A stretch of 64,000 nucleotides of DNA from contig OZ251992.1 of NCBI GenBank assembly GCA_965246885.1, positions 2,752,001 to 2,816,000 on the forward strand, in the 5' to 3' direction. The translations under genes and the position numbers were made by a program. The notes under the pieces are model-generated. The model was given only the letters and a program-made list of their open reading frames with translations. It did not search any database and was not told the origin of the DNA. Positions 25,959 through 40,300 of the stretch are shown here, in pieces; positions within the stretch are counted from its first letter, which is position 1; each line of letters opens with the position of its first letter. The stretch comes from Abditibacterium sp. Lineage in GTDB: Bacteria > Armatimonadota > Abditibacteriia > Abditibacteriales > Abditibacteriaceae.

Positions 25959-27665
25959 ATGCAAGCCATCATTCTCGCCGGAGGCATGGGCACGCGGCTT
26001 CGCCCCCTCACTTACACGCTCCCCAAGCCGATGCTCCCCGTCGCGGGGCGGCCCGCTTTGGCACATCTGGTCGAGGCGCTCGCCTTGGCAGGGTGCCGCG
26101 AGGTCATCATCACCACCAACTACCTCGCCGAGAGCGTGGAGCTTGGCCTATCACGCCTCAACTTGCCCATCCCCGTCGCGTGCGTAAAAGAAGACAAGCC
26201 TCTTGGCACCGCCGGTTGCGTGGCGAACCTCTTCGACCGCTTGGACGACCGCTTCCTCATTATCCAAGGCGACGCGGTGTCGGACATAGATTACGCCGCG
26301 TTTTGGGCCTCGCACGCCGCGCAGGAAGCGGACGTGTCCATCGCCGTGATGCGCGTCGCCGACACGCGCGAGTTCGGCGTGTGCGACGTGGACAGCACGG
26401 GCCGCATCCGCCGCTTTCAAGAAAAGCCGCGCCCCGAAGAAGCGTTCTCTGACCTCGCCTCGTCGGGCATCTACGTCCTCGAAAAGCGCCTGTTTGAAAA
26501 CGTGCCGCGCGGCGTCCCCTTCGATTTCGCGCGCGGCTTGTTCCCCGACCTGATGGGCGCGGGCGCCCATTTTCAGGCATGGCGTATGAACGGCTTTTGG
26601 CTCGACATCGGCAAGAACGAAACGTATGTCGAAGGCAATCTCAAGCTCATCGAAGGCAAGACCGCCATCGCGCCGGATGCGCACATCGCGCCCGGAGCCA
26701 CTTTGGTAGCTCCCTACTCCATTGGCGCGAGCGCCAGAATCGGGAGTGGCGCGCGCGTGGGGCCGGGCGCCGTCGTGGGCGCGCGCACCGTTGTGGGCGA
26801 GGGCGCGCACGTCGAGAAGTCCGTGCTGTTTGACGACGTGTCAGTCGGGCCGGAAGCGCAGTTGTCGGGCTGTATACTCGCTACGCGAGTTCGGGTGGGC
26901 CGCGCCGCGCGCGTCGAAGCGGGCGCCGTTGTGGGCGAGGGCTGCGATGTCGGAGCGGGCGCCATCGTCTCGACCGGCACGCGGCTCGGCCCGCACACCC
27001 CGCTTGCTGCGGGCGCGTTCTTGGAGGGCGTGTTGGAGCCGCGCGCTTCCAAATTGGGAGCTTTGGTGCGCGTCTTGGAAGCGGGCGCCACGCTCGACGC
27101 CCGCACGCTCGACGAGCGCGAAGCCTACGCGACACTCGCCGAAGGCGGCGGTTGGGGCGCCCGCGAAGTCGCCGATGCCACCAACCTCCCGCTTTACCGC
27201 GTGTTGGCAGCGCTGCACGGATTGGAGCGCGCCGAACTTGTCGTTTCCAACGCCTCGCACCCACCGATGTATCTGTTAGCTGGCGCCGAGCACGCCCTAC
27301 CGCGCCGCTTGCTCATCGTTCACCCGACCGAAGTGGGCCGCGAAACGCTGCGCGCCGCGTTTACCGCCGATGGTCATTCCGTGCGCGTCGCGTGCGACGG
27401 CATTGAGGCCGTCGAAGCCGTGCGCGACGAACGCTTTGACGCCATCCTGATGAACGCCGACCTGCCGTCGTTGGGCGGCTGGGACGCGACGCGCCTCATT
27501 CGCGGCATGGCCAATGGCCGCACCGTCGCCGTCATCATGTTCTCCTCCCACCCCGGCGCCGACGACCAAACCCGCGCCCAAGAAATCGGCGCTACGGGCA
27601 TCCTCTCGGCAACGGAACTCCCCGAATCCGTGCTGCCGCAAGTGATGGAATTGCTGGAACGGTAG
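25959..27665 (+). CDS. NDP-sugar pyrophosphorylase (mannose-1-P guanylyltransferase-like) fused to left-handed beta-helix, wHTH and receiver-like domains
   Basis: ILAGGMGTRLRPLT..PKPMLPV, PLGTAG, FQEKP, WLDIG; hexapeptide repeats; AREVADATNLP..RVLAALHGLE; ACDGIEAVE...DAILMNADLPSLGG. Confidence 0.85.
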   Translation: MQAIILAGGMGTRLRPLTYTLPKPMLPVAGRPALAHLVEALALAGCREVIITTNYLAESVELGLSRLNLPIPVACVKEDKPLGTAGCVANLFDRLDDRFLIIQGDAVSDIDYAAFWASHAAQEADVSIAVMRVADTREFGVCDVDSTGRIRRFQEKPRPEEAFSDLASSGIYVLEKRLFENVPRGVPFDFARGLFPDLMGAGAHFQAWRMNGFWLDIGKNETYVEGNLKLIEGKTAIAPDAHIAPGATLVAPYSIGASARIGSGARVGPGAVVGARTVVGEGAHVEKSVLFDDVSVGPEAQLSGCILATRVRVGRAARVEAGAVVGEGCDVGAGAIVSTGTRLGPHTPLAAGAFLEGVLEPRASKLGALVRVLEAGATLDARTLDEREAYATLAEGGGWGAREVADATNLPLYRVLAALHGLERAELVVSNASHPPMYLLAGAEHALPRRLLIVHPTEVGRETLRAAFTADGHSVRVACDGIEAVEAVRDERFDAILMNADLPSLGGWDATRLIRGMANGRTVAVIMFSSHPGADDQTRAQEIGATGILSATELPESVLPQVMELLER

Positions 27666-28394: not shown

Positions 28395-28424
28395 AAAGCC
28401 CGCAGCGTTTCCGTTGCGGGCTTT
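28395..28424 (-). terminator. Intrinsic terminator after secA
   Basis: aaagcccgcagcg-tttc-cgttgcgggcttt. Confidence 0.7.
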
Positions 28425-28430
28425 GTTGGT

Positions 28431-31400
28431 TTAGTTCTTTCCCTGCGCGCGCCGTTGGGCGCGGTTGAGGGATTCGCGGTTGATGGCGGCGGGGGCGTGG
28501 ACTTGGATGTTGCCTTCGCCGCTCCCGTCATCGGTGGTATCGAGTTGGACGCCGTCGTCTACGCCGTCGTCGTAGGGCAGCATTTGCAGGAGGCGGCCTT
28601 CTTCGAGTTCGGAGTAGTCCATCGTCGGGTCTTCGTTCTCGAAGTCGGGCAGGTCGTAGGCGAAGATGCGCTCGGTCACTTCGCGGCGGATTTCGCCGAG
28701 CATCTTCTGGAAGAGCGCGAAGCCCTCTTGCCGGTAGACGCCGATGGGTTCTTTTTGCGCGTAGCCCTGTTGCCAGATGGCGTCGCGCAAGTAGTCCATT
28801 TCGGCTAAATGTTCCGTCCAGTGTGAGTCAATGGACTTCATGACCTGCCAGCGTTCGAGGCCGCGCACTTGATCCGTCCCGACGGTGTTCTCGCGCTCCT
28901 CATACAGCTTCTCGACCGCTTCCGAAAGGGTGCGTCCGTCGGCCAAGATGAAGTCGTATTCCTCGGCGCCGATGGTGCCGCCCGCGCGCTCTTGCCATGT
29001 CGCGCCTTCGAGGTCGTCCTCTTTGAGTTGGGAGCGCACGGCGGTGAGGCCGAACAAGCGGCCCAAGCCGATCCACAGTTTGTGCGTGTCCCACTCGTCG
29101 GGGCGCACGTCGCGCGGGCAGTGCTTTTGGGCTTCGGCGAGCGCGGCTTTGCCAGCCATATCCAGAACCGTGTCGCGGATGTCCTCTCCCTGCAAAGCGC
29201 GGCGGCGTTCGCGGTAGATGACCTCGCGCTGCACGTTCATTACGTCGTCGTATTGAAGCGTCTGCTTGCGGCCCTCGAAGTGGTTTAGCTCGACCTTCTT
29301 TTGCGCGCGCGCAATGGACGCGGTAATCATCTTCGCTTCGACGGGTTCGTCCTCGTCCCAGCCGCCGAGCAAGAAGCCGCCGCGCGCGCCGAACAAGCGC
29401 CACAGTTCGTCATCGAGCGAGATGTAAAAGCGCGAAGTGCCCGGATCGCCTTGGCGTCCGGCGCGACCGCGCAACTGGTTGTCAATGCGGCGCGACTCGT
29501 GCCGCTCCGTGCCGATGATGTGCAAGCCGCCGTGCCCGGTCACTTCGTCGCGCTCCGATGTGTGCGCGATGTCTTCGGGGCGCGCTTCCGATTCGAGAAC
29601 GATGTCCGCGCTTTGCCCCGCGACGCCGGTTTCGATGCGCACGATACCCGACTCCTCGGCACTCGCCAAGGCCGTCGCGTCCGCTTCGGTTGGCGCGGCG
29701 GGCAAGGCGGGCGTTTCGCCTACCACGCTCGCCAGCCACTTCTCGTCGGTGAAGTGCGCCACCCAAGGCGCCACGTTTTGCAGAGCGCCAAAAACTTGCT
29801 CCGGCTCTGACCCAAACTCGCGCGCGGCGGATTGCACGACGGGTTTGATGGCGTCCAGCATGCGCGCGAGCGTGGTGCGATAAACGACAACATCTATCGG
29901 TTGCACCGATTCGACGCCATTCTCGTCTTGGACTTGCGCCATCATCTGCGCTTGGAAGGCGTCGTTTTCGCCGATGAGCGCGAGGTTGGTGAGTTCTCCG
30001 TGCAGCCACTGCGGTTCGAGGAACGGCTGTTGCCCCATCATCTGCGCCATTTCGCCCAGAAGGACGAGGTTGGGCATTTCGGCGGCGATGAACTCGCGGC
30101 GCCGTTCAGGCAAGGCCCAGCCCTTCACCTTCAGGCCGACCATCTTCGGGTTCAGACGCAGATGCACGTTCATCTGGTCTTGCAACGCCATCTGCATCTC
30201 TTCGGTTCCCTCGAACGGCGAAGCGTTGGCGACGACGCCCCACTCGCTCAGCCGCGCGCGGAGCCACGCGGCGCCGGGGAAGCTGGTGCCCTGCGCGGCG
30301 AGTTCTTCCTCCGACAGTTCGGGGTTGGCCTCGCGCAGTTGCTTCTGAAACAGTGCGCCCATTGCGCGCGCAATGGCCCACTCGTTGGTTTCGATGGTTT
30401 CTTTGTCGAGGTCGCCCAAGCGGTCGCGCGCCGCGTCGGAGTTGGGCACGTTCAGTTCGGTTAAACGTGCCGTCACCCACGCGGGCGTCACGACTTCCAG
30501 ATTGGCGGCGAGCGTGTCGGGCTTGAGGCCCGCGCCGGAGACAATCAGTTCAAGCAGTTGCTTGTCCAAGTCGGGCAGTTGCGGCAGCACTTCGAGCAAT
30601 CGCTCGCACGCTTGCGCCGAGAACGCGAGGGGTTGGGCGAGCGCCATCATGAGGGCCAACTGTTCGCCGGTGCGCCCCATGTCGTTGCCTTGCGAGTCGG
30701 CGGAGCCAAAATCTTGCGCGGGCAAGCCGTTTTGGATGTGCGCGGCGACTTCCATCTGGTCGTAATCGCGGCCCATCAGGGTGCCCAGTTGCTGCGTGAA
30801 CGCGGGCAGAATCTCGCCCGATGTCGGCGCGGCGTCAACGGGTAGCTTATCCAACAAGTTGAAGCGGCGCGCGCGCGAACGGACGCGGTTGGCAAAGTCC
30901 GGCGCCGTCAGATCGGAGCCAAGCGCGTCGCGGATTTCCTTGGCGGCTTGGCCCGTTAGAGCTTTGGCGCGCTCCATTTCGTCCACTTCGCGGCTCAAAG
31001 TCGTGGCCCATGCCAGCATTTGCAAGGCATCGGGCGAAAGGCGCGACACCATCTTTTGCGTCGCTTCGCCGTTGCGCGAGCGGACGTGAACGCCCTTGCC
31101 CTCGACTTGGCGGGCGAGGGTTTGCATCGTGATGACGCGCCAGCGCGACTCGCCATCGAGCGAGCCGCCGAGGATGATGTCCACGCCGCGTCCGGCCATG
31201 TTGGTGGCGATGGTAACGGCGCCGGGGCGCGCGGCTTCGGCGATGATGCGCGCCTCGTTGCGGTGGTTTTTGGCGTTGAGGACGTTGTGCGGCAGACCCT
31301 GCTTGAGCGCCGTCGTCAGCAGTTCGCGGTCGGGCGTGCCGAGCGTGAACGCCGCGAGCATAGCGTCGAGGTTCTCGCTCGCTGTCGGGTCGGGGTTGAG

Positions 31401-34400
31401 GCCCAACTGCTTCGCCAGTCCCTTGACTTGCACCGGGTTAATGCCCAGAATCGGCCCGCGCAAGAAGCCGATTAGCTGCGCTTTGTCCGCTTCGGGCACC
31501 GTCTTGTCGCCGTTGAGCCGCTCCTTGATGAGGTGCGACAGCACTAAGGTTTGCAGGCTCGCCGCGCTCAAACGCCGCGCCATCTGCTCGCTCATCTCAA
31601 CCGAGCGCGTGCCCACAAGGACGGGTTGCCCCGCGCAGTGATGCTCCAGCACGTCGAAGGTAATCGCGCGCCACTTCGCTTCCGCCGTCTTGTAAACCAC
31701 GTCGGGCGCGTCTTTGCGGCGGACTTGCTTGTTGGTCGGCACGGTCACGACTTCCATGCCGTAGGTCTTGGCGAACTCGGTTTCCTCGGTTTTGGCGGTT
31801 CCGGTCAGGCCAGAAATCTTGTTGTAAAGCCGGAAGTAGTTCTGAATCGTGATGGTCGCCACCGTTTGGGATTCGATTTGCACTTCGAGGTCGTGCTTGG
31901 CTTCGAGCGCCTCGTGCAAGCCTTCCGAAAAGCGGCGGCCCGGCATGGTGCGGCCCGTGAACTCGTCCACGATGACGATGCCCTGCTTGCCCGACTCCTC
32001 GCGCCCGATAACGTAGTTGACGTTGTACTCGAACAAGGCGTGCGCTTTGGTGGCTTGGTCGAGGACGGGGTTGACTTCCTGCAACTTGGCTTCGGCCAAG
32101 CGGCGGCGGCGTTCGGCGGGCAAGCGGAGCACGCGGTCAATGGTAGCCGTCAACGACTCGCCGCCCGCTTCGGCTTGCGCGCGTTGCGCCAAGACCGCTT
32201 CCTCTTCCGTCAGAATGTCGGCTTGCAGGAGGGTTTCGAGGAAGTTTTCCGGGTCGGAGAAGGCGGGGTTGGCCGCTTCGCGCTCGGCGACGAGCGTGCC
32301 CATGTCCGTCAGGGCAGCCGTGCGGCGCTTCTCGTCCTTTTCGGCGAGCCAGCCCAAGTTCTTGGCGACGCGCACCAGATACTGTTCGGGCGCCATCGTT
32401 CCCGGCGGCGTCGCCGATACACTCACCTGCGCCAAACGGCGCAGGGCGCGCGCTAACTGATCCGCCGATTTGCCGACGAACTCGGACGGCGGCAGATTCT
32501 TCGCCAAGTCCTTGGGCAGAATCAGGCGGCGCTTGATTTCTTCCGTAAAAGCGCGCGCGTTCTCCTCGGTCAGGAGCGGCTCCAAGTGCCGCGCGACGAC
32601 ATCCGCCGCCAACACGCCGAAAATGGCGTGGTCGAGGGCACCCGACAACGGCTGGGCCAGTAGTTCGCCAAGGGCATCGTGCGCGTCGCCGGAGATTTCC
32701 AGCGCCTTTTCGATTTGCGCGACCAGCCCCGCGTTCGACTCGCGCTTGAACTCGTTCCACGCCTTCCCGTAGTCGTCAATGGCCTTGGCGAGCGGGGCGA
32801 TGGCGGGAGACGTAGTTAACTGCGCGCCGACGAAAGTGTCCAAGCCGCTCGCGCCAAATTCGCCGTCCTCGACCGCGCGCTGAATGGCAGCGCGGGCCTC
32901 TTCAGGCAAGGGCACGAGGCCGTTTACTTTGTCGGCGAACGCGACCGATTGCTCCTGACGCCACGTTTGCAAGCGCGCGGCGCCGTCGGTTGCGATAGCG
33001 GACAGTTCGCCGCCATCTCCCGGCAAGTCGCGCACGACGGCGACCAAGCGGTCGGCAACGGCGTTCTGCCGTCCACCCTCGGCGAGTAAGGAAACGAAGA
33101 CTTTGTTCGCTTCGCGCGGCATTTCTTCGACCCACTGCGCCATTTCTTCGACCATGTGCGCGGCGATTTGCTCGTAAGTCTTACCCTGCTCGCGCTGAAG
33201 CGTCGCGGCGGCTTTGACGGCGAGCGCGAATTGGCCGGATTTGCCCAACTCCTTTTGCAAGGCGGCCTGCAACGTGGGCGCGTCCTCGCCTTGGAGGGCT
33301 AACTTGGCGACGACTTTATTGGGGCCGAGCGCACTTTCCAAGGTGCGGCTCTGCTCCGCCAAAAACGCAGTGCGGCTCGCGCTGTACTCTTTGGTCAGGG
33401 CAGAAATTTGCGTCGCCGCCTCGCCGCCTTGGGCCTCAATGGTCTTGACGACTTCGGCGCGCAATTGCTCACGGGAAAGCGGCAGTTTCGCGGTGTTCCA
33501 CAGCGTTTCTAACGACTCGAACGGCAAGAGCGCATTTTGCGTGAGCGTTTCCAACGCGGCGACCAGCTTACGGACGGAGGCGGCGTCTATACTCCCTCTC
33601 CCGCTCGCGGGAGAGGGGGACGGCGCGTTATCGCGCAGCACTTTGTCCGCCGCCGCGAGGTTGCCGCCTTGCTCCAAGCACGCGAGGACGAAGGCATCGT
33701 GTCCGCTTTGCAGGGCGCTCGCAACGGCTTCGACGGACTCGGAATCCACCAGTTCGCGGTTGCTCATCTCGTCGGCGATAAGGAGCGCGACGGTGCGGCC
33801 CTTGTCGTCGGAGTCAGAGATTTGCCCTTCCAAGTCAATAGCGGCGTCTTCGGGAAGCGTCAGGTCGTGCGCGAGGAGCGCGGCGTTGCTCCACTCGGAG
33901 TCTTGCGCGTTGAGCCACGCGGTCTCGAACGGCGCCAAGAGGCGCCCGATTTCTTCGCGCCACGCTTCGTGCAAGCGTCTGGCATCTACGGCTCCGAGGG
34001 CAAGCGCGTCCAAGTGGGCCTTGCCATCGGGGGAAATAAGTTTGTCGTTCGCCAGTTCGTCGCTCGCATCCAACAAGCGCGCGGCGTTGCTCAAACGGGC
34101 GCTTTCTTCCGATTGGAGATAGGCCGAGATGAGGTAGCCCATCGCTTGGGTGAAGGCGCCGCGCGCCAGAATCGCTTCGGTGAGGCCCGCGATGTCCACT
34201 TGCTTTTTGGTGGAGAAGCGCTCGATGAAGGTTTCGACTTCGCGGTCGGTGACGGCGGGCATGAGGACTTTCGCCACGCCGTCGCAGGTCTTGCTCATCC
34301 CTTGGCGGCGCAGGGCGCGGTCGGTTTTGGCGACTTGGGCGGAAATGATAAGCGGCGTGCGCGCTTCGTCAATGAGGATGTTGTCCACCTCGTCAATGAT

Positions 34401-35183
34401 GGCGAACGACAAAGGCTTTTGCACCATGTCGTCGGGCGAAGCGGCCATGTTGTCGCGCAAGTAATCGAAGCCAAATTCCGAGTTGGTGCCGTAGAGGATG
34501 TCGCAGGCGTAGCACTCTTGGCGCTCGGCGGCGTCCATATCGTTCTGCAAGAACGCGACACTCAGCCCCAGAAACTCATAAACGGGCCGCATCCAGTTGG
34601 CATCGCGCTCGGCGAGGTAGTCGTTGACCGTGACGACGTGAACGCCGCGCCCGGTCAGCGCGTTGAGATAGGCGGGAAGCGTGGCGACGAGCGTTTTGCC
34701 TTCGCCGGTGCGCATTTCGGCGATTTTGCCGCCGTGCAACACCATGCCGCCGATTAGCTGAACGTCGAAGTGGCGCAAGCCGATGGTGCGGTCGCCCGAT
34801 TCGCGGCACAGCGCGAAGGCTTCGGGAAGCAGCAGGTTCAGCACTTCCTTTTCGGCGGCGAGGCGGGCGCGCACGTACGCATCCGTCCACGAGAACTGGG
34901 TTTCCAGTTCCAGCCATTCCAAGCCCTGCTTTTGCAGGCGCTCGGTGACTTCGACGCCAAAGCGCTCGCGTAGCGCGAGGGAGCGGGCTTTGAGTTCTTC
35001 GTCGGACAGCGCCTTGATTTCGTCGGCGAGGGCGCCAATTTGCTCGACGATGGGGCGGAGTTTGGCGACCTCTTTCTCGTTTTTGTCGAAGAGTTTGGAA
35101 ACGACGCCTAAGACGCCCTCGGCTTCTTGGGACGAGCCGGAAATATCGGACTTAGAGCCGAACAGTTTTTGTAAGAGTGACAT
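28431..35183 (-). CDS. secA: Giant (2250 aa) preprotein translocase ATPase SecA with large insertions
   Basis: [120 protein letters not shown]. Confidence 0.95.
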
Positions 35184-35200
35184 GATGTAAGTGCAAACCA

Positions 35201-35286
35201 GAACACAGATAAACGCGGATGGGACACAGAGGAGCCGCAGATGAATAGTTGGATTTCATCTGCGTCAGTGGGCGTTTATCTGCGGT
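35201..35286. repeat. Imperfect palindrome between leader ORF and secA
   Basis: Outer arms aacacagataaacgc ... gcgtttatctgcggtt; inner arms cgcagatgaa ... ttcatctgcg. Confidence 0.75.
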
Positions 35287-35679
35287 TCAATTCAAACGAA
35301 CTTGGGTTTGCACGCCCGACAAGCGCGCGATGACCGTCGCGGACAACTCGTGTGTCCGACGCGCGCGAATGATTTGCGGGGTGGGAGGCGACGGGGAATC
35401 TGAAAACGCGCCCAGATGCGCCGTCGCCGTCGAAACCCAAAGCGGCGATGGGGAAGTGGTGGGGGGCGTTTCCGCGACTGTCGGGGAACCAAGGTGTGCC
35501 GTTTGCGGCGCGCTCGCTTCGGCGGAAAGGAGCAATAGCACCGACTCGACCGAGGGCGTTCCGGGCGCTGTTGCCCACTGCGCCACTGGCATCGCCCACA
35601 ACGCAAGCAACGCCGCGACGAAAAACAGCGAAGCGTCGGGGCGGCGGAGGCGGGCGAACTGGGCCAACAAGCGAAACAT
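35287..35679 (-). CDS. Putative secA leader protein (SecM-like architecture)
   Basis: Basic N-terminus plus hydrophobic signal/TM segment (SLFFVAALLALWAMPVAQWA), Pro/Ser/Thr-rich linker, co-oriented about 100 bp upstream of secA. Confidence 0.55.
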   Translation of the reverse strand: MFRLLAQFARLRRPDASLFFVAALLALWAMPVAQWATAPGTPSVESVLLLLSAEASAPQTAHLGSPTVAETPPTTSPSPLWVSTATAHLGAFSDSPSPPTPQIIRARRTHELSATVIARLSGVQTQVRLN

Positions 35680-38062: not shown

Positions 38063-38656
38063 TTATTCGCCGCGCTTTTCTTTGTGCAGGATGTGGTCAA
38101 CCATGCCGTAGGCTCTGGCTTGTTCGGCGCCCATCCACTTGTCGCGCTCGGAGTCGGCGAGCACGGTTTCAAGCGGCTGGCCGGTGTGCGAAGCGATGAT
38201 CTTGGCGAGGGTGTCCTTGAGGGTCAGCATCTCGCGCAGGGTGATTTCCGCGTCCGTCGCTTGGCCCTCGAAGCCGCCCGATGGCTGGTGAATCATCACG
38301 CGCGCGTTGGGCGTGATGTAGCGCTTGCCGGGAGCGCCCGCGCACAAAAGCAGCGCGCCATAGGACGCCGCCATGCCGGTGCAGATGGTGGCGATGGGGC
38401 ACCGCACGGTCTGCATCGTGTCGTAGATGGCGTTGCCCGCATACACGGAGCCGCCGGGCGAGTTGATGTAAATGTCTATCTCGCGTTCGGGGTCTTGCTT
38501 TTCAAGCCAGAGCAACTGCGCTTGAACGACGGTGGCGAGGGCGTCGGTCACTGGCTCGTGAATGAAGATGATGCGCTCTTCCAAAAGGCGCGAGAATAGG
38601 TCGTAGCCGCGCTCACCGCGCGCGGTCTGTTCGATGATGGATGGAACGAGTGGCAT
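38063..38656 (-). CDS. clpP: ATP-dependent Clp protease proteolytic subunit
   Basis: [45 protein letters not shown]. Confidence 0.97.
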
Positions 38657-38785
38657 TGTGGTTAAACAAAACGCCGCGCTTGGTCGAACGACGGCGGGCG
38701 CGGCGGTTTATGCACTTCTGGACTATTAGGTTGGGGGCGCGGTTCCGGCTTCGGAGGAAGCGCCCCCGTTCGTCTTACTCGCGAC

Positions 38786-40300
38786 CTACGCCAGCGTCAG
38801 CCCCGGCGCGTGGCCTTCTTCTTCGGCGTCGCCGCCTTCGGCCATGACCAGTTCGCCGTCCTCGTCTAACTCGCCGAGCATGGCTTCTTGAGCGAGGGCT
38901 TCCTCGATGACTTCTTCGTTCTCGTCGTCCAAGGAGTTGGCCGCCATTTGGACGGGCTGACCCGCTTCGTCGGTGATGACGGCGTGTTCGGTCAGGAAAT
39001 CAATGGCTTTGCGCTGGAGAATGCTCGTCACGACGGACTGGTAGGGCACCTGCTTGACAAGTTCTTCGGGCGGCGTTTGGCTCATCTGCGCCATCATCAT
39101 GTAGTGGTTGCCCACTTCGTCCTCGGAAACGGGGAACTTTTGGCCGCGCGCAATTTCGTCCAACACCAGTTCCGTTTTCAGTTCGTTCTCGATTTCCTCG
39201 CGCAGGTCGGCTTCCAACTGCTCTTGCGTGGAGTTGATGGCTTGCAAGTAGGCTTCGATGGTCGCGCCGTTCTGGGAGAGTTCCTGTTGGATGCCCGCCA
39301 CGCGGTCGGTCACGCGAGCGCTCACAAGCGCGCTGGGGACTTCGACGACCGACTTGTCCACGACCTGCTTGACGACTTCTTCGCGGGCTTCTTTGCGCGA
39401 CTCGCGCTCGCCGACTTGGGCGAGGTAGTCGCGCAGCTTGGTGTGAAGGTCAGCGACGTTCTCGGCGCCCGAAATTTGCGCGAACTCGTCGGTCACTTCG
39501 GGGATGACGCGCTCCTTGATGGCGGTGACTTTGACCTCGAACTCGGCGCTTTTGCCCGCCAGTTCGGGGTCGGGAAAGTCTTCCGGGTAGGCCTGCGTGA
39601 AGCGGCGCGTTTCGTCCAACTTTTGGCCGACCAGTTGGTCGTCAATGGCGGGCACGAAGCCGGACTCGCCCAAAACGAAGCCGCGCAGTTTGGCGGGTTC
39701 CTCGGAGCGCGGCTGGCCGTCCACGAAGACCTGCACGTCGGCGAAAATCACGTCGCTCATTTGCGCGCTCACTTCGCCACTGCCGCCTTCGTCCTCTTCT
39801 TTCTTGTTCTTGAGATAGGCGCGCTCCTCTTGCATTTGCGACAGAGCCTGTTGCACGTCTTCGTCGCTGATGTTGACGGTGCGCTTGGTGGCGCTCAGGC
39901 CTTCGGTGGAGCCGACGGTGATGTCGGGGCGCACGACCACGCGCGCGACGAAGGTGAAGGGCTTGTCGCCGTCGAAAGCGTCGAAGGAAAGTTCGTCCAC
40001 TTGAGCTTGGTCGAGGGGCACGACGCCCGCTTGCTGCACGGCGGCTTGGTAGGCGGCGGGCACGAGTTGGTCAGAGACCTCTTGGGAAATCGCCTCGTCG
40101 CCCACGTTGCGGCGCACGATGCCAGCCGGGATGGAGCCGGGGCGGAATCCGGGGATGCGGATGCGCTTGGAGAACTCTTTGATCGCGCGGTTGCGCGCGT
40201 CTTGCACTGCCGCAGGTGCGACTTCGATATGGAGCGACACGAGGCCGCCGTCCTGTTTTTCGACCGAGAGGTTGGAAAGTTGAATGCCGTTAGGTTGCAC
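38786..40300 (-). CDS. tig: Trigger factor
   Basis: IPGFRPG ribosome-binding signature, FKBP-like domain (FVPAIDDQLVG, YPEDFPDPELAGK), upstream of clpP. Confidence 0.93.
   Translation of the reverse strand: MQPNGIQLSNLSVEKQDGGLVSLHIEVAPAAVQDARNRAIKEFSKRIRIPGFRPGSIPAGIVRRNVGDEAISQEVSDQLVPAAYQAAVQQAGVVPLDQAQVDELSFDAFDGDKPFTFVARVVVRPDITVGSTEGLSATKRTVNISDEDVQQALSQMQEERAYLKNKKEEDEGGSGEVSAQMSDVIFADVQVFVDGQPRSEEPAKLRGFVLGESGFVPAIDDQLVGQKLDETRRFTQAYPEDFPDPELAGKSAEFEVKVTAIKERVIPEVTDEFAQISGAENVADLHTKLRDYLAQVGERESRKEAREEVVKQVVDKSVVEVPSALVSARVTDRVAGIQQELSQNGATIEAYLQAINSTQEQLEADLREEIENELKTELVLDEIARGQKFPVSEDEVGNHYMMMAQMSQTPPEELVKQVPYQSVVTSILQRKAIDFLTEHAVITDEAGQPVQMAANSLDDENEEVIEEALAQEAMLGELDEDGELVMAEGGDAEEEGHAPGLTLA

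What the first reader, a model, noticed from the sequence alone, without database searches (positions are those of the whole stretch)
28431..35183. Giant 2250-aa SecA, about 2.5 times normal length, with all motor motifs intact
Seen: one uninterrupted ORF with Walker A (TGEGKT), DEVD, motif V (TNMAGRG), motif VI ([10 protein letters not shown]) and scaffold/wing/two-helix-finger motifs in order, but with roughly 1300 extra residues. It ends [11 protein letters not shown] with no SEC-C zinc motif. Established: housekeeping SecA is typically about 800-1100 aa. Inference: this is a functional translocase with lineage-specific added domains, possibly a built-in chaperone or substrate-holding module. 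It sits in housekeeping context with its own leader ORF, not in an accessory secA2/secY2 locus.
Basis: partly seen in the sequence, partly recalled or inferred. Interest (0 to 1): 0.85.

Follow-up and report, generated by a model that had tools for sequence, protein, structure and literature searches.

The report
Giant SecA with two inserted domains
The only protein-export motor (SecA) of this soil bacterium is 2.5 times the normal size because two large extra domains sit in the two jaws of its substrate clamp, a form shared by its whole bacterial class and seemingly never described.

Summary
Window 28431-35183 (-) is one uninterrupted 2250-aa ORF that passes NCBIfam's SecA equivalog cut-offs, with all motor motifs in order and no SEC-C zinc finger. 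It is the only secA in a 3.55-Mb genome, which has one ordinary secY.

The size is not an artefact and not unique to this genome. 22 of 28 sampled genomes of the same class (Abditibacteriia, by the record titles of relatives) have secA frames of 2143-2338 aa. The 12 genomes from other classes of the phylum have 980-1153 aa.

The extra ~1270 residues are two inserts:
- Insert A (~aa 290-1035) lies in the first part of the preprotein-crosslinking domain. It is all-helical, holds three ~72-aa repeats, and is an orphan: 15 hits among 1.84 billion proteins, all giant SecAs or short records I read as their fragments.
- Insert B (aa 1345-1869) lies between motifs V and VI. It starts as a partial tandem duplication of NBD2 (hhalign 97.9%) and encloses a new ~335-aa alpha/beta domain.

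Both inserts are under purifying selection (dN/dS 0.07-0.18). No intein signs were found. Their function is not shown. I infer regulatory or substrate-handling additions to the clamp. I found no description in print.

The parts
28431..35183 (-). secA, 2250 aa plus stop. It is the sole secA of the genome.
35112..35183 (-). aa 1-24: N-terminal extension ([11 protein letters not shown]...) that looks like a second copy of the canonical N-terminal motif found at aa ~25-40 ([14 protein letters not shown]). The 7 normal SecAs of the phylum lack it.
   Evidence: direct reading; weak because it is short
34320..35111 (-). aa 25-288: first part of NBD1 with Walker A (GEGKT at aa 160) and DEVD (aa 264).
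32343..34259 (-). Insert A1, aa ~309-947: orphan all-alpha domain in the N-terminal part of the PPXD.
32649..33296 (-). Inside A1, aa 630-845: three tandem ~72-aa helical repeats (630-703, 702-774, 772-845).
   Evidence: hhalign: first vs third repeat prob 79-91%, E 1.7e-5 to 8.4e-7; the middle repeat is weaker, E 3e-4 to 0.01
32241..32342 (-). aa 948-981: conserved PPXD piece ([11 protein letters not shown]..) that aligns with normal SecAs and splits insert A into two parts.
32079..32240 (-). Insert A2, aa 982-1035: a second, 54-aa helical insertion in the PPXD.
31152..32078 (-). aa 1036-1344: rest of the PPXD, second part of NBD1 (TGTAKTEE at 1127), and first part of NBD2 up to motif V (TNMAGRG at 1327).
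31152..31682 (-). aa 1168-1344: the NBD2 segment that served as template for the duplication.
29577..31151 (-). Insert B, aa 1345-1869, between motif V and motif VI. E. coli residue ~513 aligns with aa 1343.
30684..31151 (-). Insert B N-part, aa 1345-1500: degenerate duplicate of NBD2 aa 1168-1300.
   Evidence: hhalign prob 97.9%, E 3.5e-13; alignment shown; the same signal appears in 10 other giant SecAs by hmmsearch
29679..30683 (-). Insert B middle, aa 1501-1835: new alpha/beta domain found only inside giant secA genes.
29589..29645 (-). aa 1847-1865 ([19 protein letters not shown]): degenerate copy of the motif V strand ([18 protein letters not shown]). It holds 7 invariant columns among 15 giants.
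   Evidence: the hhalign signal is weak, E 0.005-0.007
28638..29576 (-). aa 1870-2182: rest of NBD2 with motif VI ([10 protein letters not shown] at 1903), then scaffold, wing and two-helix finger (GYAQKEP at 2140).
28434..28637 (-). aa 2183-2250: acidic C-terminal tail that ends in a basic stretch, with no SEC-C zinc finger.
28395..28424 (.). 13-bp-stem palindromic, terminator-like hairpin just after the secA stop codon.
35287..35679 (-). Upstream 130-aa ORF (from the ATG at 35679) with a signal-peptide-like N-terminus and a conserved C-terminus (LSGVxTxVRLN). It is conserved next to secA within the genus only.
35191..35297 (-). Stable nested hairpin in the 103-nt gap between the upstream ORF and secA.
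   Evidence: -36.7 kcal/mol, z -4.4; no Rfam family; the sequence is not conserved in relatives

Best explanation
This is the single, working housekeeping SecA motor of an Abditibacterium-type bacterium (GTDB class Abditibacteriia, phylum Armatimonadota, judged from the record titles of close relatives). The canonical machine is complete: NBD1, PPXD stem and C-terminal half, NBD2, scaffold, wing and two-helix finger. So it should bind SecY and push preproteins by ATP hydrolysis like any SecA. On top of this, two class-specific modules have been built into the two domains that form the polypeptide clamp. (1) Insert A is a ~640-aa orphan all-helical domain, plus a 54-aa second piece, in the N-terminal part of the PPXD. 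It replaces about 47 residues of B. subtilis SecA (233-279) and contains three ~72-aa tandem repeats. (2) Insert B is 525 aa at the site between motifs V and VI of NBD2. It arose by tandem duplication of NBD2 residues ~1168-1344. The copy lost the catalytic motif V residues and took up a new ~335-aa alpha/beta domain. Shown: the anatomy, the single gene copy, the class-wide conservation, the purifying selection, the duplication origin of insert B, and the orphan status of both inserts. Inferred: the inserts are folded, functional accessories of the clamp. They most likely tune the PPXD swing and nucleotide turnover (as is reported, from my recall, for the small VAR element at the same NBD2 site in E. 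coli) and/or give extra surface for preproteins or partners. They do not change the basic transport mechanism.
For: SecA identity. Sole secA in the genome. One normal secY per genome in 40 of 41 relatives, with frames of 428-504 aa. Motifs in order.

Class-wide size: 27 of 28 class genomes other than G000 have a match, and 22 of these have open frames of 2143-2338 aa. Five are shorter or split; G001 and G024 run to the contig start by arithmetic, and the other three were not checked. The 12 genomes of other classes have 980-1153 aa. Relatives' record titles name Abditibacterium or Abditibacteriaceae. 59 protein clusters of 1887-2350 aa are of the same type.

Insert positions and lengths are conserved in 14 other giants: insert A region 730-791 aa, insert B region 374-507 aa. 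Identity to the four most distant giants (L036-L039) is 48-63% in the core, 27-35% in insert A and 23-30% in insert B.

dN/dS in five genus-level pairs is 0.07-0.18 in the inserts against 0.04-0.11 in the core.

AlphaFold2 models: insert A is all-alpha, with 10-residue block means of pLDDT mostly 85-95 over model residues ~90-650. Insert B is alpha/beta, mostly 75-92.

Duplication: hhalign gives prob 97.9%, E 3.5e-13, and the order of secondary-structure elements is the same in the template and the copy.

Orphan status: the insert A profile hit 15 of 1.84 billion representatives. Two are full-length giants, one is a 901-aa SecA N-terminal piece, and the rest are short records that I read as fragments. 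The profile of the new part of insert B hit 20 of 201 phylum genomes, all in the class (f1 18/18, f3 1/1), once per genome, in the same contig region as the secA match where one is listed.

A core-only tree separates giants from normal SecAs with support 1.0.
Against: No experiment or expression data exist. No RNA run was listed. The function of the inserts is inference only. No fold or family match gives a clue.

The models were built from alignments of only 15 sequences and from pieces, not the whole protein. The PPXD core came out with low confidence in the piece model. I could not superpose the models on a SecA-SecY structure, so I do not know whether the inserts face the membrane, SecY or the cytosol.

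The match of the degenerate motif V copy is weak (E 0.005-0.007). The middle 72-aa repeat is also weakly supported.

dS is near saturation for pairs that include the window (0.7-1.7). The inserts evolve faster than the core, which also fits looser, less specific roles.

The VAR function and its coordinates are recalled, not checked in a paper here.
Confidence: 0.55

Rival explanations
1. Built-in holdase: the helical insert A, sitting on the signal-peptide-binding PPXD, keeps preproteins unfolded. It would stand in for SecB-type chaperones.
For: Insert A sits in the PPXD. No SecB was detected in the genome, which is 92.7% complete. The genus has lost the SEC-C zinc finger, which from recall binds SecB and ribosomes. 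Insert A is a large repeat-containing helical surface.
Against: No similarity to any chaperone family or fold was found. Most bacteria lack SecB without enlarging SecA (established knowledge). Relatives with the same inserts keep SEC-C, so the two traits are not linked. Insert A is acidic (net -31, pI 4.8) with no marked hydrophobic segment: the highest 19-aa Kyte-Doolittle mean is 1.5.
Confidence: 0.15
2. Docking platform: the inserts bind a lineage-specific partner such as the ribosome, the membrane, an envelope assembly factor or another SecA protomer, and place the motor at particular sites.
For: Both inserts are folded, conserved and surface-type additions. They always occur together in the class.
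Against: No partner is suggested by gene neighbourhood. The neighbours are unrelated and not conserved beyond the genus. SecY is of ordinary size. There are no transmembrane-like segments.
Confidence: 0.15
3. Tolerated expansion: the inserts arose by duplication and accretion at permissive surface loops. They are now kept only because they must fold without harming an essential protein, with no function of their own.
For: The same loops are insertion hot spots in other long SecAs. Among 14 other long SecAs aligned, unrelated inserts of 232-389 aa at the motif V/VI site occur in 3. Insert B began as an internal duplication. The inserts evolve about twice as fast as the core. One sub-lineage lacks ~130-150 aa of insert B.
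Against: dN/dS is 0.07-0.18, and lengths are kept at 730-791 and ~490-525 aa across the sampled families of the class (f1-f4). The cost is 1270 extra residues in what is usually an abundant essential protein. There are invariant Trp, Arg and Gly columns inside the inserts.
Confidence: 0.15
4. The inserts are inteins or other elements removed after translation, or the ORF is a misassembly or pseudogene.
For: Insert B sits right after a highly conserved motif, as inteins often do. There is a weak Foldseek row to the LAGLIDADG endonuclease I-OnuI (E 0.036, prob 0.20).
Against: No Hint, intein or LAGLIDADG Pfam match, even at E up to 10. The junctions, read directly, have no His-Asn plus Cys/Ser/Thr. 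The frame is open in 22 class genomes and 59 protein clusters. Contigs of two runs bridge all four junctions. Purifying selection acts on the inserts. The start of insert B is homologous to NBD2 itself.
Confidence: 0.02

Closest known systems
Canonical housekeeping SecA (T. thermophilus 2ipc, B. subtilis 1m6n/1tf5, E. coli 2fsf)
   Same: All domains and motor motifs are present in the same order. The best PDB match is 2ipc at E 1e-196. The protein passes the NCBIfam SecA equivalog cut-offs and is the sole copy. Like T. thermophilus SecA, NBD2 has about 90 aa more between the PPXD and motif V than in B. subtilis or E. coli (coordinates).
   Different: It is 2250 aa, against 780-997 aa for the SecA (non-SecA2) chains listed. 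About 740 aa replace B. subtilis residues 233-279 in the PPXD. 525 aa follow E. coli residue ~513 in NBD2. There is no SEC-C.
VAR (variable) subdomain of E. coli SecA NBD2 (Das et al. 2012, J Bacteriol; recalled, not read here)
   Same: Same insertion site, just after the motif V strand and before motif VI (one search gives the E. coli numbering; the VAR coordinates 519-547 are recalled).
   Different: VAR is about 30 aa. Insert B is 525 aa, is a partial duplicate of NBD2, and holds an extra domain. VAR's reported role in ADP release is only an analogy here.
Lineage-specific conserved inserts of SecA in thermophiles (Khadka, Persaud and Gupta 2019, PMC7023208; abstract read)
   Same: Surface-exposed, clade-specific inserts in the ATPase domain of an otherwise conserved SecA, with independent origins in different lineages.
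   Different: Those inserts are 50 and 76 aa. These are ~740 and 525 aa with domains of their own.
Giant housekeeping SecAs of KSB1-type bacteria
   Same: A housekeeping SecA of ~2060-2080 aa, enlarged in the PPXD, standard in its clade and not found in print.
   Different: According to those notes, the growth there is by tandem copies of a PPXD bulb piece and of the wing domain. Here insert A shows no similarity to the PPXD or to any other SecA part (hhalign prob up to 1.5%), the second insert is in NBD2 rather than the wing, and the lineage is different.
Other long SecAs in metagenomes (1240-1707 aa)
   Same: Extra domains at recurrent loops, including the motif V/VI site.
   Different: Their inserts do not match the insert A or insert B profiles. 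The only hits (P0064, P0074, P0116) lie at aa 454-717 and cover the duplicate part of the profile (hmm 1-153), which I read as the native NBD2 segment. None of the 14 examined has a PPXD insert at this position.
SecM-secA leader of E. coli (recalled)
   Same: A small ORF with a signal-peptide-like start lies directly upstream of secA, with a conserved C-terminal motif and a stable hairpin in the gap.
   Different: There is no sequence similarity to SecM, no RAGP-type motif, and no visible Shine-Dalgarno sequence to be masked. It is conserved only within the genus. Arrest is untested.

Membership tests
SecA (housekeeping preprotein translocase ATPase) | Score above the curated equivalog cut-offs | tested here: met
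   PRK12904 scores 928.8 against 814; TIGR00963 scores 871.5 against 800
SecA (housekeeping preprotein translocase ATPase) | DEAD-type motor motifs: Walker A, DEVD, motif III, motif V and motif VI with arginines | tested here: met
   GEGKT at 160, DEVD at 264, TGTAKTEE at 1127, TNMAGRG at 1327, [10 protein letters not shown] at 1903; aligned to solved SecAs
SecA (housekeeping preprotein translocase ATPase) | PPXD inserted in NBD1 | tested here: met
   SecA_PP_bind E 2.5e-17, but only profile positions 47-110. The stem side and the DEK strand align with normal SecAs. The N-terminal part of the domain is replaced by the insert.
SecA (housekeeping preprotein translocase ATPase) | Scaffold, wing and two-helix finger | tested here: met
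   SecA_SW profile positions 1-198 of 200, E 7.6e-56; GYAQKEP at 2140 (its role as the fingertip is recalled)
SecA (housekeeping preprotein translocase ATPase) | C-terminal SEC-C zinc finger (common but not universal) | tested here: not met
   No PF02810 match and no CxCGSGKK motif. It is present in 8 of the 14 other giants and 6 of 7 normal relatives examined, so it is a secondary loss.
SecA (housekeeping preprotein translocase ATPase) | ATP-driven translocation through SecYEG | not testable with these tools
   Needs biochemistry.
Accessory SecA2 / SecY2 system | Second secA paralogue beside a housekeeping one, often with secY2 and accessory genes | tested here: not met
   One secA and one secY. 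All five SecA2 models score below their cut-offs, e.g. TIGR03714 at 573.6 against 930.
Intein | Hint splicing domain, with or without a homing endonuclease, and nucleophile / His-Asn junction residues | tested here: not met
   No Pfam match in either insert at E up to 10. The junctions were read directly. The start of insert B is homologous to NBD2.
E. coli VAR-type NBD2 insertion | Insertion between motif V and motif VI | tested here: met
   aa 1343 aligns with E. coli ~513. This shows site identity only. No sequence relation was tested, and the VAR coordinates are recalled.
SecM-type monitoring leader | Secreted small ORF upstream of secA with a C-terminal arrest motif that controls secA translation | tested here: inconclusive
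   An ORF with a signal-like start and a conserved C-terminus is present in 4 genus-level relatives, and a hairpin lies in the gap. Arrest and regulation are not testable here.

The most novel reading that the evidence does not exclude
The two inserts are not decoration but a new working part of the export motor. A degenerate third RecA-like half-lobe (the NBD2 duplicate with its nested domain) and a large helical repeat arm on the PPXD would together lengthen the polypeptide clamp, or act as a built-in holdase or unfoldase. In that case a whole bacterial class would run Sec export with a mechanistically modified motor.
Probability: 0.15. Interest if true: 0.85.

Novelty: new variant of a known kind. 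Interest (0 to 1): 0.6.

Why it matters
SecA is one of the most conserved and best-studied bacterial machines, and its clamp (PPXD against NBD2) is central to current transport models. Here a whole class of free-living bacteria carries, as its only SecA, a form with about 1270 extra folded residues placed in exactly these two domains.

This offers a natural experiment on how much load the clamp and the motor can bear. It also gives a clear case of how a giant essential protein grows: partial internal duplication, a nested new domain, and a repeat-built orphan domain. And it supplies two orphan domains whose function could be tested by deletion, in a lineage with a cultured representative.

It also shows that very long SecAs recur in uncultured lineages (this scan noted others in KSB1), a pattern that I could not find described.

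Tried and rejected
- Pfam on each insert alone at E up to 10 gave only noise (OSR1_C at 0.39, DUF2406 at 0.2).
- Foldseek against PDB found nothing for the insert A model (best E 0.023, TM under 0.11). The insert B model matched only SecA NBD2, plus a weak I-OnuI row.
- VIA-align wide search: for the insert B model the top hits were SecA and helicase RecA lobes (Z 11), and rows covering the insert proper had Z 6.2 or less. For insert A the best Z was 8.5, within the noise range for helical models. Both models exceed 400 residues, so single-domain matches may have been missed. I had no folding jobs left to fold the domains alone.
- ESM Atlas gave no usable hit for insert A or for the middle of insert B.
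- Complex prediction of insert A against insert B aa ~1495-1855 returned 'no answer', score 0.00. This says nothing either way.
- hhalign of insert A and of the middle of insert B against all other SecA parts and against each other gave no relation (prob 7.3% or less).
- An HMM of the 72-aa unit found no further significant copies and nothing in normal SecAs.
- No RNA holder was listed, so there is no expression evidence.
- The leader region has no Rfam family.
- The upstream intergenic sequence is not conserved among relatives.
- Searches of this scan's notes by place and by sequence found nothing on this genome or on look-alikes.
- Literature searches found no paper on a giant SecA or on SecA of Abditibacterium. 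PMC7203096 holds both words, but the passages I read concern taxonomy only. The Abditibacterium description paper and the Del Val and Bondar SecA diversity paper (both recalled) were not in the searchable library and were not seen.
Full report
**The observation**

Window 28431-35183 (minus strand) is a single ATG-started ORF of 2250 codons without stops.
- Pfam finds SecA_DEAD, SecA_PP_bind (profile positions 47-110 only), P-loop_SecA and SecA_SW, and no SEC-C domain.
- NCBIfam places it above the cut-offs of both housekeeping SecA equivalogs (928.8 against 814; 871.5 against 800). It falls below all five SecA2 models.
- The best solved relative is T. thermophilus SecA (2ipc, E 1e-196), matched in separate blocks with large gaps in the query.
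TGTAKTEE lies at 1127 and GYAQKEP at 2140. The protein ends [11 protein letters not shown].

**It is not an artefact**
- GC content is even along the gene.
- Contigs of two public runs (one study, possibly the source sample) tile the gene with no indels. They bridge all four insert/core junctions.
- The stronger argument is conservation, described under "Where the giant form occurs".

**Copy number and partners**

The genome (3.55 Mb, 2 contigs, 92.7% complete) holds only this secA. It has one secY of normal size, as do 40 of 41 genomes searched (frames of 428-504 aa). No SecB was detected. So this is the housekeeping motor, not an accessory SecA2.

**Where the giant form occurs**

Record titles of close relatives name Abditibacterium, Abditibacteriaceae and Abditibacteriia.

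Among the 40 relatives searched:
- 27 of the 28 genomes of the same class have a SecA_SW match. The one without is 63% complete.
- 22 of these have open frames of 2143-2338 aa.
- Five are shorter or split (786, 1034, 1578 and 1929 aa, and one split into 308 and 336). Two of them (G001, G024) run into the contig start by arithmetic. I did not check the others.
- All 12 genomes of other classes of the phylum have 980-1153 aa.

A search of 5.8 billion proteins listed 59 clusters of 1887-2350 aa of this type. The next SecAs in that list were 1242-1707 aa (best 120 of 6690 hits shown).

A tree on 929 shared core columns separates the 15 giants from the 7 normal SecAs with support 1.0. This is consistent with one origin at the base of the class.

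**Anatomy of the extra residues**

A MAFFT alignment of 15 giants and 7 normal SecAs of the phylum shows two large inserts.

Insert A lies in the PPXD.
- aa 240-289 align with B. subtilis 183-232, and aa 1031-1100 with B. subtilis 280-344. So about 740 aa stand where B. subtilis has 47.
- A short conserved PPXD piece (aa 948-981, [11 protein letters not shown]) splits the insert into A1 (~309-947) and A2 (982-1035).
- The region is 730-791 aa in the 14 other giants, against 51-71 aa in normal relatives.

Insert B (aa 1345-1869) follows the motif V strand.
- aa 1343 aligns with E. coli residue ~513.
- It ends about 30 residues before motif VI.
- It is 486-507 aa in 13 of the other giants and 374 aa in one order-level relative. 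Normal relatives have 0-55 aa there.
- From recall, this is the site of the small VAR element of E. coli SecA.

There is also a ~24-aa N-terminal extension that resembles a second copy of the canonical N-terminal motif (short, so weak).

**Nature of insert A**
- AlphaFold2 on an alignment of 15 sequences (aa 275-1125) gives mean pLDDT 79. Block means are mostly 85-95 for model residues ~90-650, and the fold is entirely helical.
- Foldseek found no match. The wide VIA search gave Z 8.5 at best, within the noise range for helical models.
- Pfam and the ESM Atlas gave nothing.
- A profile of aa 310-944 searched against 1.84 billion representative proteins found 15 proteins. Two are full-length giant SecAs, one is a 901-aa SecA N-terminal piece, and the remainder are short records I read as fragments.
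- Inside it, aa 630-703 and 772-845 are related (hhalign prob 79-91%, E 1.7e-5 to 8.4e-7). The unit between them, 702-774, is weakly related (E 3e-4 to 0.01). That makes three tandem ~72-aa units.
- An HMM of the unit found no further significant copy and nothing in normal SecAs.
- Insert A shows no relation to any other part of SecA.

**Nature of insert B**
- Its first ~150 residues are a diverged duplicate of NBD2 residues 1168-1300. hhalign gives prob 97.9%, E 3.5e-13, with the alignment shown.
- hmmsearch finds the same internal match in 10 other giant SecAs.
- The predicted secondary-structure elements follow the same order in template and copy.
- Its last ~20 residues ([19 protein letters not shown]) mirror the motif V strand ([18 protein letters not shown]). 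The statistics are weak (E 0.005-0.007), but this stretch holds 7 invariant columns of the insert.
- I therefore read insert B as a tandem duplicate of aa ~1168-1344 that lost the catalytic motif V residues. It then acquired, inside the copy, a ~335-aa alpha/beta domain (aa 1501-1835).
- That domain has no fold, Pfam or Atlas match.
- Its profile occurs in 20 of 201 genomes of the phylum. All are in the class, once per genome, in the same contig region as the secA match where one is listed.
- Protein searches for shorter or longer carriers found only SecA fragments.
- One sub-lineage lacks about 130-150 aa of this domain.

**Selection**

Identity to the four most distant giants (L036-L039) is 48-63% in the core, 27-35% in insert A and 23-30% in insert B. 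Pairwise dN/dS among five genus-level pairs is 0.07-0.18 in the inserts and 0.04-0.11 in the core. dS is 0.4-0.8 for the three closest relatives compared with each other, and near saturation for pairs with the window. So the inserts are coding and constrained, under looser constraint than the motor.

**Other properties**

Both inserts are acidic (net -31 and -27) and have no transmembrane-like segment. No intein or homing-endonuclease domain is present, the junctions lack intein residues, and insert B starts with SecA's own sequence.

The SEC-C zinc finger is ancestral. It is present in 8 of the 14 other giants and 6 of the 7 normal relatives examined. It is lost in this genus and in two other giants.

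**How it most likely works**

Shown: a complete SecA motor that is the only one available to the cell, with two conserved, folded, clade-restricted modules in the PPXD and NBD2.

Inferred: the basic mechanism is that of SecA. The PPXD rotates around its stem and meets NBD2 only in the closed state, forming the clamp (passages of PMC11610655 read). Modules in these two domains are therefore placed to influence clamp movement, nucleotide turnover or substrate contact.

I give about 0.35 to a regulatory or clamp-accessory role. The holdase, docking-platform and tolerated-expansion rivals get about 0.15 each. Artefact or intein gets about 0.02, and the rest is unassigned. The confidence of 0.55 given for the best explanation is for the whole statement, whose shown parts (identity, anatomy, origin of insert B, class-wide spread) I hold at about 0.9. 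A co-folding test of insert A with the new domain of insert B gave no answer.

I could not superpose the models on a SecA-SecY structure. The orientation of the inserts toward the membrane is therefore open.

**Comparison with what is known**

This is a member of the SecA family by every tested defining feature except the optional SEC-C. It differs from all solved SecAs (non-SecA2 chains of 780-997 aa) by its two inserts.
- Small lineage-specific inserts in SecA are known: 50 and 76 aa in thermophiles (abstract of PMC7023208) and the E. coli VAR element (recalled).
- Other long SecAs in metagenomes carry unrelated inserts at the motif V/VI site, the wing and the N-terminus.
- Earlier notes of this scan report ~2060-2080-aa SecAs in KSB1-type bacteria, built from repeated PPXD and wing pieces (not checked by me). 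The present case is in another lineage and has a different construction.

Eight literature searches found no description of a giant SecA or of SecA in Abditibacterium. Subscription papers not in the library could hold one.

**The 'leader ORF'**
- A 130-aa ORF (35287-35679, minus strand) ends 103 nt before secA.
- It has a signal-peptide-like start and a conserved end (LSGVxTxVRLN).
- It is conserved at 57-58% identity beside secA in three relatives with 81-85% identical SecA, and at 37% in a fourth. tblastn found no match in four more distant, family-level loci.
- The gap folds into a stable nested hairpin (-36.7 kcal/mol, z -4.4), but its sequence is not conserved in relatives.
- It matches no Rfam family.
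- A SecM-like monitoring role is an untested idea.

**Verdict**

The interpretation as a functional translocase with lineage-specific domains is supported. The chaperone idea is untested. The form is standard for a whole class and is apparently undescribed. I rate it a new variant of a known kind, with interest 0.6.

Noticed in passing
window 35287-35679 (-) and gap 35184-35286: A small ORF with a signal-peptide-like N-terminus and a conserved C-terminal motif (LSGVxTxVRLN) lies directly upstream of secA. It is conserved in 4 relatives (three with 81-85% identical SecA, one more distant). The gap holds a stable nested hairpin (-36.7 kcal/mol, z -4.4). It could be a Sec-monitoring leader, or just a neighbouring gene with its terminator.
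   Followed up: partly
window 35112-35183 (-), aa 1-24: Giant SecAs start with an extra copy-like version of the N-terminal motif ([11 protein letters not shown]..., then ...[14 protein letters not shown]). The 7 normal SecAs of the phylum have only one.
   Followed up: partly
C-termini of secA in L017-L041 and the window: The SEC-C zinc finger (CPCGSGKKYK.CC) is present in 8 of the 14 other giants and 6 of the 7 normal relatives examined. In this genus and in L022 and L026 it is replaced by short basic tails. L020 is cut at the contig end.
   Followed up: yes
proteins P0060-P0120, mapped: Many metagenomic SecAs of 1240-1707 aa carry unrelated inserts at recurrent sites: after motif V (232-389 aa), in the wing region (130-310 aa), at the N-terminus (~257 aa), and in NBD2 (~160 aa). 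Their lineages were not determined.
   Followed up: partly
L038 (G025) and proteins P0051-P0054: One order-level sub-lineage of giant SecAs lacks about 130-150 aa from the middle of insert B (profile positions ~171-318 of A4).
   Followed up: partly
window 25959-27665 (+): A 568-aa fusion protein combines a sugar-nucleotidyltransferase with a hexapeptide-repeat domain, a TrmB-like helix-turn-helix (weak, below cut-off) and a C-terminal response-regulator receiver domain. This is an unusual combination.
   Followed up: no
window 38063-40300 (-): Trigger factor (tig) and clpP lie about 3 kb upstream of secA on the same strand, separated from it by a Memo-like gene, an opposite-strand metallo-beta-lactamase-fold gene and the small upstream ORF.
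   Followed up: no
G023:C12:519176-519863: In one family-level relative the SecA_SW region is split over two frames (308 and 336 aa). This may be a frameshift or an assembly error.
   Followed up: no
L041, ~130 nt upstream of secA: A run of about nine tandem CCCAACA heptamers lies just upstream of secA in this relative.
   Followed up: no
window 31084-31340 and 34425-34938: Summed contig depth in the two runs spikes 3-14-fold over the motif V region and the Walker A region. This probably reflects shared words with SecAs of other organisms in the same samples.
   Followed up: no
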